A stretch of DNA of 64,000 nt from the human T2T-CHM13v2.0 reference genome, Homo sapiens: the NCBI RefSeq assembly GCF_009914755.1, contig NC_060934.1. One strand, given 5' to 3'. Position 1 is the first letter of the stretch. Every line of letters starts with the position of its first letter. The notes under the pieces are model-generated. The model did not search any database and was not told where the DNA came from. It worked only from the letters and a program-made list of their open reading frames with translations. A program made the translations under genes and the position numbers. Positions 50,132 to 51,498 of this stretch are shown here, one piece after another.

Positions 50132-50292
50132 CTATGAAGATTTTTGTAACAACTAAAAACTCAAAAAACCAAGGCATAGAGGAAGCTTTAAAAAATCGCA
50201 ATTTTACTGTAGAAAAAATGAGTGCTGAAATTAATGAGATAATTCGTGTGTTACAACTCACCTCTTGGGATGAAGATGCCTGGGCCAGCAAG
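50132..50292 (+). CDS. VCL: Vinculin exon 6 (161 nt; [53 protein letters not shown]; ends at K261, end of domain D1)
   Basis: tatttttacag|CTATGAAG...GCCAGCAAG|gtacgt; overlaps ORF 50134..50397. Confidence 0.98.
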
Positions 50293-50397
50293 GTACGTGT
50301 TCTTAGTGGAGAAATAAGCAAAATCCCCAACTCTCCCTGGCTGGGGGTTTTGATTGGCACCTGTCTCATACTTTATCTTGTAATTTTTGTAGCATAA
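50293..50397 (+). CDS. VCL: In-frame read-through of exon 6 into intron 6: alternative C-terminus [38 protein letters not shown]
   Basis: Frame stays open for 34 codons past the donor; the last 19 residues are uncharged and mostly hydrophobic. I recall a short curated vinculin isoform with this tail (not verified here). Confidence 0.5.
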
Positions 50398-51498
50398 GAG
50401 TACTCAGATATTGTGAAAGTAATTTCTTCTTCATTTCTGTTTCATAGGTTACTTGCTATCTTTGCTAATTTCCTTTGTTCTAAGGTAGAACAAGTAAATA
50501 GGCATGTGGGGTAGATACTGGTTTAAGGCTGAGATTTATAGCTTTTCCATCAGGCTGGAGTCTTATTGGTTGGACTGGTGGAAGAGTATATTCCCGTGGA
50601 TGGGAGCTCTGCCTTGTATATGGGTGGTTCTTCCCAGCTGACTAAGTAAGATACAGATATGCCTGTAATTCTGAACTTTATGGAAAACTTTTCTTTAACC
50701 AATCTTTGATCCAGAGAAATCTACAGAGGAAACTCTTGGCATTTCTAGATGTGTCCCTTGATCATTCCATTTTCCCCAAGGAAGGTTTAATTAAAATATT
50801 AGTCTTCACATTGGTCAGTTAGTTTGAGGGATCCCTTCACCCTTTTTCTGGAATCTCTTTTAGGACCCCAGAGGGGCTGGCAGATTCCTTCTAGAGCCTG
50901 TTAGCAGTGGTTTTGTGTTGCTGCTGCTCTGGTCTGCTGCTCCCTGTTTAATGACTGTGAACCAAGCTTTCAGGTCTGGGGGAACAGAGATACTTGGGTT
51001 CATACTTTCCTTGTAGGAGCCCAAGATGTAGGCAGTGGGGGGAACACACTGTCCCCAAGATCTAGCTTTCCCATGTGTGACCCCAATGTCTCCAGGGCCA
51101 GCCAGAAGGCTGGTAGTCAACTAAAGAAGGGATTTTGTTGTATGACTTCCATTGGGTGCTCAGTAGAACGGTATGTTCTCCGGGATCTGTAAGGTAATGT
51201 AAAAGCTGGGGCCTGAAATCACCAGCCCTCTCTCTTGTTGCCCTGAAAGCTAATTTAATTATATAGAGTAAGTTAGCTTATTTTAACTATGGATTTATTT
51301 ACAGAGACATTTTCTCATTGATGTGAAGTTCTTGAATAGATTCTAAGACTGTATTTTAAATCTATATGGTAAAATCTTTTTAACTCTGATATTTTATTTA
51401 ATTTTGCTTTTGCATAGTTGACAACTTTCACTTCCCTGTTATGACTTCTTTATGCATCTTTTTTTGTTCTTTTGTTTTATTCTTTTTCTCACGTTTAG

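What the first reader, a model, noticed from the sequence alone, without database searches (positions are those of the whole stretch)
50132..50800. Intron-6 read-through gives vinculin D1 a tail-anchor-like hydrophobic C-terminus
Seen: skipping the exon-6 donor adds [38 protein letters not shown], with 19 uncharged, mostly hydrophobic residues at the extreme C-terminus. Candidate poly(A) signals follow (ATTAAA 50790-50795; AATAAA at 52314, 52667, 53035). Established: D1 (about aa 1-258) binds talin, alpha-actinin and alpha-catenin VBS helices, and without the tail it is not autoinhibited and stabilises focal adhesions. I recall a short curated VCL isoform with this C-terminus but no described function. 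Inference: intronic polyadenylation could make a membrane-anchored, constitutively open vinculin head.
Basis: partly seen in the sequence, partly recalled or inferred. Interest (0 to 1): 0.72.

Follow-up and report, generated by a model that had tools for sequence, protein, structure and literature searches.

The report
Chance hydrophobic read-through after vinculin exon 6
Reading past the end of vinculin exon 6 into the intron does give a membrane-anchor-like tail, but that tail is not kept in most other mammals, so it looks like an accident of T-rich intron sequence and not a working protein isoform.

Summary
Skipping the exon-6 donor (AAG|GTACGT, 50292/50293) adds 34 codons (50293-50394) and a TAA stop (50395-50397). 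The last 19 residues are uncharged, with mean Kyte-Doolittle (KD) hydropathy 2.55, and AlphaFold2 models them as one helix. Exon 6 ends at vinculin K261, so the D1 head domain would be whole.

The functional reading is not supported. Of 30 placental-like genomic ORFs whose read-through aligns with the human one, only one keeps the same frame and stop, and it carries an Arg inside the hydrophobic stretch. One other keeps the hydrophobic run but reads on. The other 28 stop earlier or change frame. A 34-codon open stretch is common in these introns (P=0.15). So hydrophobic an end is rare (2 of 1126), but roughly 100-200 such donors are expected genome-wide. A poly(A) hexamer within 400 nt is a coin toss (P=0.48).

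My searches of the open-access full-text library found nothing on this tail or on VCL intronic polyadenylation. Transcript 3' ends, ribosome footprints and peptides could not be checked here.

Most likely this is an incidental open frame. Any product would enter SGTA/BAG6 triage.

The parts
50132..50292 (+). VCL exon 6; first full codon ATG at 50134; encodes vinculin M209-K261, the end of head domain D1
   Evidence: Hub annotation; the open frame is frame 2 only; 53 of 53 residues identical to solved vinculin chains at positions 209-261
50290..50298 (+). Exon-6 splice donor AAG|GTACGT
   Evidence: It matches the recalled donor consensus CAG|GTAAGT at 7 of 9 positions, within the range of the other six VCL donors in the window (6-8 of 9)
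50293..50394 (+). 34-codon read-through extension [34 protein letters not shown]
50338..50394 (+). 19-residue uncharged hydrophobic end ([19 protein letters not shown]), shaped like a tail anchor
   Evidence: KD mean 2.55. 12 of 19 sense codons have T at the second position, and the DNA is 43% T. AlphaFold2 single-sequence model: helix at residues 68-86 of the 87-aa query, block pLDDT 75-80
50395..50397 (+). TAA stop of the read-through frame
50790..50795 (+). ATTAAA hexamer, candidate intronic poly(A) signal 393 nt after the stop
   Evidence: no TGTA in the 60 nt upstream; G+T fraction 0.58 in the 60 nt downstream. Its use was not tested
52314..52319 (+). AATAAA hexamer followed by TGTTATTGAACTTTATTTTGTG (U/GU-rich)
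   Evidence: Its use was not tested
52667..52672 (+). AATAAA hexamer
53035..53040 (+). AATAAA hexamer

Best explanation
This is the ordinary exon 6 / intron 6 boundary of human VCL. The first 102 nt of the intron happen to be open in the exon's frame. Because the stretch is T-rich (T at the second codon position gives F, L, I, M or V), the end of that frame is hydrophobic. The frame is a recent, lineage-restricted accident and not a maintained coding segment.

Shown here: the sequence, its local rarity, and its lack of conservation.

Inferred, from established knowledge:
- The donor is normally spliced.
- Transcripts that merely retain intron 6 carry a premature stop far upstream of later exon junctions, so they should be removed by nonsense-mediated decay.
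- Only rare cleavage at an intronic poly(A) site would give a stable mRNA.
- Any protein made would expose a tail-anchor-like C-terminus. SGTA/BAG6 would capture it and triage it to RNF126/proteasome degradation, or in part to membrane insertion.
For: (1) Conservation. Two protein searches returned unnamed genomic ORFs that span exon 6 and run into the intron in many vertebrates.
- I picked 30 placental-like ORFs by eye as having a read-through alignable with the human one. Of these, 1 (P0151) keeps the same frame, length and stop; 1 (P0002) keeps the hydrophobic run but reads on for 19 further residues, three of them charged; 28 stop before the hydrophobic part or change frame. Ten of the 28 end at ...PNS-LLGV/LWGL/LLGL.
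- P0151 differs from human at 5 of 34 tail residues but at 0 of 53 exon residues. This needs at least 6 nt changes in 102, and includes L->R in the middle of the hydrophobic stretch.
- Over all 135 read-through tails (51 with ...AWASK, 84 with ...AWANK), only P0151 has a terminal-19 KD of 2.0 or more.

(2) Chance.
- P(34 or more open codons) = 0.149.
- 2 of 1126 intronic stretches end as hydrophobically.
- About 33% of intronic positions (20,730 of 62,532) read 19 codons or more. With a recalled figure of roughly 180,000 coding donors in the genome, this predicts on the order of 100-200 such donors by chance.

(3) Composition. 12 of 19 codons have T in second place, and intron 6 is 34% T.

(4) Poly(A) hexamers are not informative here (P=0.48 for one within 400 nt).

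(5) Fate of such ends.
- High KD hydropathy of the last 30 residues is associated with proteasomal degradation. The main (MANE) isoforms average -0.53 (PMC12863090, passages read); this tail scores +1.35.

(6) Searches of the held open-access library (full text only) found no paper on this tail or on VCL intronic polyadenylation. VCL is absent from the four supplementary files of Singh et al. 2018, which include its differential intronic-polyadenylation workbook (PMC5928244).
Against: - The hydrophobic end is rare locally (2 of 1126), and none of the other six donors in the window reads on for more than 10 residues.
- The closest relative available (P0151) does keep frame, length and stop. A young catarrhine- or ape-specific isoform is therefore not excluded.
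- The tail meets the sequence criteria used for tail-anchored proteins: one terminal hydrophobic helix and no residues after it.
- BAG6 triage can lead to insertion as well as to degradation.
- An AATAAA at 52314 has a good U/GU-rich downstream element.
- I could not look at 3'-end, Ribo-seq, long-read or MS data, at Ensembl/UniProt isoform lists, or at named primate genomes.
- The comparison ORFs are unnamed cluster representatives. Their taxa are inferred from similarity only, several are probably close relatives of each other, and that their ends are true stops is inferred from many contigs giving the same end.
Confidence: 0.8

Rival explanations
1. A real but unselected by-product. A small fraction of VCL pre-mRNA is cleaved at an intronic poly(A) site. 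The 295-residue D1-plus-tail protein is made at low level, and part of it escapes degradation and inserts into the ER membrane through the tail-anchor pathway. It has no selected function, but it could matter when splicing or elongation is disturbed (U1 or CDK12 inhibition, or variants that destroy the exon-6 donor).
For: The tail has tail-anchor shape. The triage complex can hand hydrophobic ends to GET3/GET4 for insertion (PMC10364623 section 15). Poly(A) hexamers are present, and the one at 52314 has a plausible context. Lack of conservation fits an unselected product.
Against: No transcript or protein evidence could be obtained. The donor matches the recalled consensus at 7 of 9 positions and lies about 500 nt upstream of the first hexamer; by recalled knowledge of U1 telescripting, this should suppress that site. 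VCL is not in the four supplementary files of PMC5928244, which include its differential intronic-polyadenylation workbook.
Confidence: 0.14
2. One reading: a functional, lineage-restricted intronic-polyadenylation isoform that places a constitutively open vinculin D1 on a membrane, where it captures talin, alpha-actinin or alpha-catenin.
For: D1 would be complete. The engineered vin258-cBAK recruits full-length talin to mitochondria stably and without force (PMC7039207). The closest relative keeps frame and stop. The hydrophobic end is locally rare.
Against: 28 of 30 alignable placental-like read-throughs lack the tail. The one that keeps it has an Arg in the hydrophobic core, and its tail differs at 5 of 34 residues against 0 of 53 in the exon. 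My library searches found no paper on it. The RefSeq transcript spelled out in the hub table splices exon 6 normally to exon 7. A stable open D1 that sequesters talin would be expected to be harmful, not neutral (inference).
Confidence: 0.05

Closest known systems
Translated noncoding C-terminal extensions (intron, 3'UTR or stop read-through) cleared by SGTA/BAG6/RNF126
   Same: A coding frame runs into noncoding, T-rich sequence and ends in a hydrophobic stretch that resembles an orphan tail anchor. KD hydropathy of the last 30 residues is +1.35, against -0.53 on average for main isoforms (PMC12863090). The pathway is described in PMC10364623.
   Different: Here the extension would arise by skipping a splice donor, not by stop-codon read-through. 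Its degradation was not tested.
Engineered vin258-cBAK (vinculin D1 fused to the BAK tail anchor; Atherton et al., PMC7039207)
   Same: Vinculin D1 followed by a C-terminal membrane anchor. The construct recruits full-length talin without force and binds it very stably.
   Different: It is an artificial fusion, targeted to mitochondria by the BAK anchor. The natural read-through tail has no residues and no charge after the hydrophobic stretch; by recalled sorting rules that points to the ER, not mitochondria. Whether it is made at all is unknown.
Tail-anchored membrane proteins (criteria of Fry et al. 2021 as quoted in PMC12863090)
   Same: A single hydrophobic helix of 29 residues or fewer at the extreme C-terminus, with a post-helix tail of 29 residues or fewer (here 0).
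   Different: The anchor is not conserved among orthologous loci, and there is no evidence of insertion. Genuine tail-anchored proteins keep their anchor across species.
Truncated proteins made by intronic polyadenylation (composite terminal exons, as in Singh et al. 2018, PMC5928244)
   Same: An exon extended into its intron, an in-frame stop soon after, and poly(A) hexamers downstream.
   Different: No 3'-end evidence for VCL. VCL is absent from that paper's four supplementary files, which include its differential workbook.

Membership tests
Vinculin family, head domain D1 | Sequence identity to vinculin residues that complete D1 (solved constructs end at 252-258) | tested here: met
   residues 1-53 of the query equal vinculin 209-261. 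Chains of 252-258 residues (5y04_A, 3tj5_A, 3rf3_A) end inside the exon-6 product. The alignment stops where the intron-encoded tail begins.
Tail-anchored membrane protein | Single C-terminal transmembrane helix (29 aa or fewer) with 29 or fewer residues after it | tested here: met
   19 uncharged residues with KD 2.55 at the very end; AlphaFold2 helix at 68-86 of 87. A dedicated predictor (TOPCONS, DeepTMHMM) was not available.
Tail-anchored membrane protein | No signal peptide and no other transmembrane segment | not tested
   Exon 1 lies outside the window. From established knowledge vinculin D1 is a soluble helical bundle, as in the solved structures listed.
Tail-anchored membrane protein | Anchor maintained in orthologues | tested here: not met
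   1 of 30 alignable placental-like read-throughs keeps the end, and it has an Arg in the core. 1 of 135 vertebrate read-through tails has terminal-19 KD of 2.0 or more.
Tail-anchored membrane protein | Post-translational insertion (GET/TRC40 or EMC) | not testable with these tools
   Needs cell or in vitro insertion assays.
Intronic-polyadenylation isoform | Poly(A) hexamer downstream of an in-frame intronic stop | tested here: met
   ATTAAA at 50790; AATAAA at 52314, 52667 and 53035. But the chance of one within 400 nt is 0.48.
Intronic-polyadenylation isoform | Observed cleavage/polyadenylation sites and reads covering the composite exon | not testable with these tools
   No expression or 3'-end data are available here. 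My searches of the held library found no paper reporting it, and VCL is absent from the supplements of PMC5928244.
Noncoding-translation product subject to BAG6 mitigation | High hydropathy of the last 30 residues | tested here: met
   +1.35 against the MANE mean of -0.53 quoted in PMC12863090.
Noncoding-translation product subject to BAG6 mitigation | BAG6/RNF126- and proteasome-dependent instability | not testable with these tools
   Needs a reporter assay with and without BAG6/RNF126 depletion or proteasome inhibition.

The most novel reading that the evidence does not exclude
A young, catarrhine- or ape-specific intronic-polyadenylation isoform of VCL makes a 295-residue, constitutively open D1 head. 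A newly arisen tail anchor fixes it to the ER (or another membrane), where it captures talin or alpha-catenin away from adhesions. It would be a natural counterpart of the engineered vin258-cBAK.
Probability: 0.05. Interest if true: 0.7.

Novelty: not a real feature. Interest (0 to 1): 0.15.

Why it matters
If the tail-anchored D1 were real, it would be a natural dominant modifier of talin-vinculin mechanosensing and an example of a membrane anchor born from intron sequence. As the evidence stands, its value is mainly as a worked negative. It shows that a locally striking hydrophobic read-through is expected about a hundred times or more per genome. It also shows that unnamed host-DNA ORFs in metagenome protein libraries can serve as a quick cross-species frame test for human introns. 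One practical point remains: variants that destroy the exon-6 donor, or drugs that provoke premature intronic cleavage, would be predicted to produce this particular hydrophobic-ended D1 fragment.

Tried and rejected
- A search of the 5.8-billion protein set for longer proteins (154-2000 aa) carrying the tail found none. This is weak evidence, because that set holds few annotated vertebrate proteins.
- Scans of genome contigs and viral contigs for DNA of the related ORFs found nothing. Nucleotide-level comparison (synonymous versus non-synonymous changes, conservation of the poly(A) signals) was therefore not possible.
- Literature. 'vinculin' plus 'intronic polyadenylation' gave 41 papers. 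I judged the 15 listed by title and abstract only, and none concerns VCL polyadenylation.
- 'VCL' plus 'intronic polyadenylation' gave 8 papers, 5 listed. In the two I opened, VCL is only an antibody or loading control.
- 'P18206-3' gave 0 papers.
- 'isoform 3 of vinculin' and 'vinculin isoform 3' each gave 0 papers. 'BC039174' gave 3 papers, seen as a listing only; their titles are unrelated to a short isoform.
- The peptide strings gave 0 papers.
- 'vinculin' plus 'tail-anchored' gave 71 papers, 15 listed, none on a vinculin anchor by title or abstract.
- 'VCL' plus 'intron 6' plus 'vinculin' gave 1 paper, which looks unrelated by its title.
- Kesner et al. 2023 is not held. It is cited only through PMC12863090.
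- The supplement of PMC12863090 held as text does not mention VCL.
- A self-BLAST of 50293-50900 against the window found no other copy, so there is no sign that it is a repeat family member within this window.
- I considered and rejected the poly(A) hexamers as evidence, because they are too frequent.
I have the same vague recollection but could not confirm it with any call, so I give it no weight.

Full report
**What is in the sequence**

Exon 6 of VCL (50132-50292, hub table) is open only in the frame whose first full codon is ATG at 50134. Translating on through the donor AAG|GTACGT gives ...DEDAWASK followed by [34 protein letters not shown] and a stop. The 34 added codons occupy 50293-50394 and the TAA occupies 50395-50397.

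The last 19 residues carry no charged residue and have mean Kyte-Doolittle (KD) hydropathy 2.55. A single-sequence AlphaFold2 model of the 87-residue exon-6-plus-tail piece is weak overall (mean pLDDT 63.7). It still makes residues 68-86 one helix, and this is the best-scored part of the model (block means 75-80).

Alignment to solved vinculin chains puts the exon-6 product at M209-K261. Solved D1 constructs end at 252-258. The hypothetical protein would therefore have 295 residues: a complete D1, a 15-residue linker and a terminal hydrophobic helix.

ATTAAA at 50790 and AATAAA at 52314, 52667 and 53035 are all present. So are two further ATTAAA at 52369 and 52547.

**Is it more than chance?**

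- In the introns of this window, 14.9% of 62,532 start positions read 34 or more codons before a stop. The open length means nothing.
- The hydrophobic end is unusual locally. Of 1126 distinct intronic stop-terminated stretches of 19 aa or more on the + strand, 2 end with KD 2.55 or more, and 4 are uncharged with KD 2.0 or more. On the - strand 1 of 1126 reaches 2.55.
- The other six VCL donors in the window read on for only 1-10 residues.
- The cause is visible in the codons: 12 of the 19 have T at the second position, in DNA that is 43% T.
- Genome-wide estimate: about 33% of intronic positions read 19 codons or more (20,730 of 62,532). Multiplying by 0.2-0.4% and by a recalled figure of roughly 180,000 coding donors gives on the order of 100-200 such read-throughs by chance. 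A reader scanning many windows will meet some.
- The poly(A) hexamers carry no weight. A[AT]TAAA occurs 117 times on the + strand, and 48% of random positions have one within 400 nt.
- None of the four cited hexamers has an upstream TGTA within 60 nt. The one at 52314 has the best U/GU-rich downstream sequence.

**Cross-species test**

No mammalian genome collection is on hand. However, two protein libraries built from metagenome assemblies contain ORFs called on host DNA that begin in or before exon 6 and run into intron 6.

- The search of protein representatives gave 162 hits at E<=0.001.
- The search for homologous proteins at near length gave 135.
- I read the tails of all hits that carry the end of exon 6: 51 with ...AWASK (mammal- or sauropsid-like) and 84 with ...AWANK. 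Two intron-less copies (P0076, P0127) were set aside.

I picked 30 by eye as having a read-through recognisably homologous to the human one, and aligned them:

- **P0151** (87 aa, 94% identical overall) keeps the same frame, length and stop.
- **P0002** keeps the hydrophobic run but has no stop there and reads on for 19 further residues, three of them charged.
- **The other 28** lack the tail. Ten end at ...PNS-LLGV/LWGL/LLGL, just before the hydrophobic part. The rest shift frame at or near the G-run/T-run at 50343-50351 and end in unrelated sequence.

P0151 is identical to human at 53 of 53 exon residues but at only 29 of 34 tail residues. This needs at least 6 nt changes in 102, and one change is Leu->Arg in the middle of the hydrophobic stretch. 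That lowers terminal-19 KD to 2.05.

Over all 135 tails, only P0151 has a terminal-19 KD of 2.0 or more.

Caveats:
- The ORFs are unnamed cluster representatives.
- Their taxa are inferred from similarity, and several are surely close relatives of one another.
- That their ends are true stops is inferred from the same end recurring over many contigs (for example 47 contigs for P0155).

Even so, there are about ten or more visibly different outcomes among placental-like sequences. The tail is not a maintained coding feature. At most it is shared by a narrow primate group, within which it already varies at a critical position.

**What would happen to such a product**

The following are inferences from established knowledge, not results here:
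- A transcript that only retains intron 6 has a stop far upstream of later junctions and should be a nonsense-mediated decay target.
- Only cleavage inside the intron would give a stable mRNA.
- The donor matches the recalled consensus at 7 of 9 positions. By recalled work on U1 telescripting, that should suppress nearby sites.

From the literature:
[quoted passage not shown] The same complex can instead pass clients to GET3/GET4 for insertion (PMC10364623, abstract and section 15 read).
- High KD hydropathy of the last 30 residues is associated with degradation. Main isoforms average -0.53 (PMC12863090, passages read); this tail scores +1.35.
- Kesner et al. 2023, the primary source, is not held.

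If some protein did insert, the engineered vin258-cBAK shows what to expect. D1 on a tail anchor recruits full-length talin stably and without force (PMC7039207, passages read).

**Literature and annotation**

- The RefSeq transcript spelled out in the hub table splices exon 6 normally to exon 7. The table lists two transcripts in all and details only that one.
- Searches found no paper for P18206-3, and none for 'isoform 3 of vinculin' or 'vinculin isoform 3'. BC039174 gave three papers with unrelated titles, seen as a listing only.
- The peptide strings found nothing.
- Searches for vinculin or VCL with intronic polyadenylation gave no listed paper that concerns VCL polyadenylation by title or abstract. 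In the two I opened, VCL is only an antibody or loading control.
- Nothing turned up for vinculin with 'tail-anchored' or for VCL intron 6.
- VCL is absent from the four supplementary files of Singh et al. 2018, which include its differential intronic-polyadenylation workbook.
- Only full texts of open-access papers and preprints are searched. Supplements of other papers and isoform databases were not visible, so a catalogued but unstudied short isoform may still exist.

**Verdict**

The functional inference is not supported.

| Reading | Probability |
|---|---|
| Incidental, T-rich open frame after a normally spliced donor, present in this form only in a narrow primate lineage; any product enters tail-anchor quality control | about 0.8 |
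| Low-level, unselected product that partly reaches a membrane | about 0.14 |
| Functional young isoform | about 0.05 |

Noticed in passing
window 50293-50351: The first ~19 intron-encoded residues ([14 protein letters not shown].) align without gaps in 27 of the 30 placental-like ORFs. That is more similarity than I would expect from neutral intron. The similarity ends at a G5 run (50343-50347) followed by a T4 run (50348-50351), which is where most frames break. This may reflect a conserved donor-proximal splicing element (G-runs are known intronic enhancers, recalled), with indels in the homopolymer runs.
   Followed up: partly
P0127 (295 aa) and P0076 (58 aa), unnamed library proteins: These ORFs continue from the end of exon 6 straight into exon-7-encoded sequence ([12 protein letters not shown]...). 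They therefore come from intron-less VCL copies (processed pseudogene or cDNA-like DNA). P0127 leaves the vinculin frame after ...LRRQGK.
   Followed up: no
P0010, P0015, P0016, P0017: In several fish-like genomic ORFs the frame stays open from exon 5 through the whole of a short intron 5 into exon 6, and on into intron 6. Open read-through of short vinculin introns is thus common and varies between species.
   Followed up: no
whole window: A[AT]TAAA occurs 297 times on both strands, against 187 +/- 12.5 in dinucleotide-preserving shuffles. Only 117 are on the transcribed (+) strand, which leaves 180 on the - strand. The + strand has more T (0.32) than A (0.283), which by my estimate accounts for most of the asymmetry.
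   Followed up: partly
   Followed up: no
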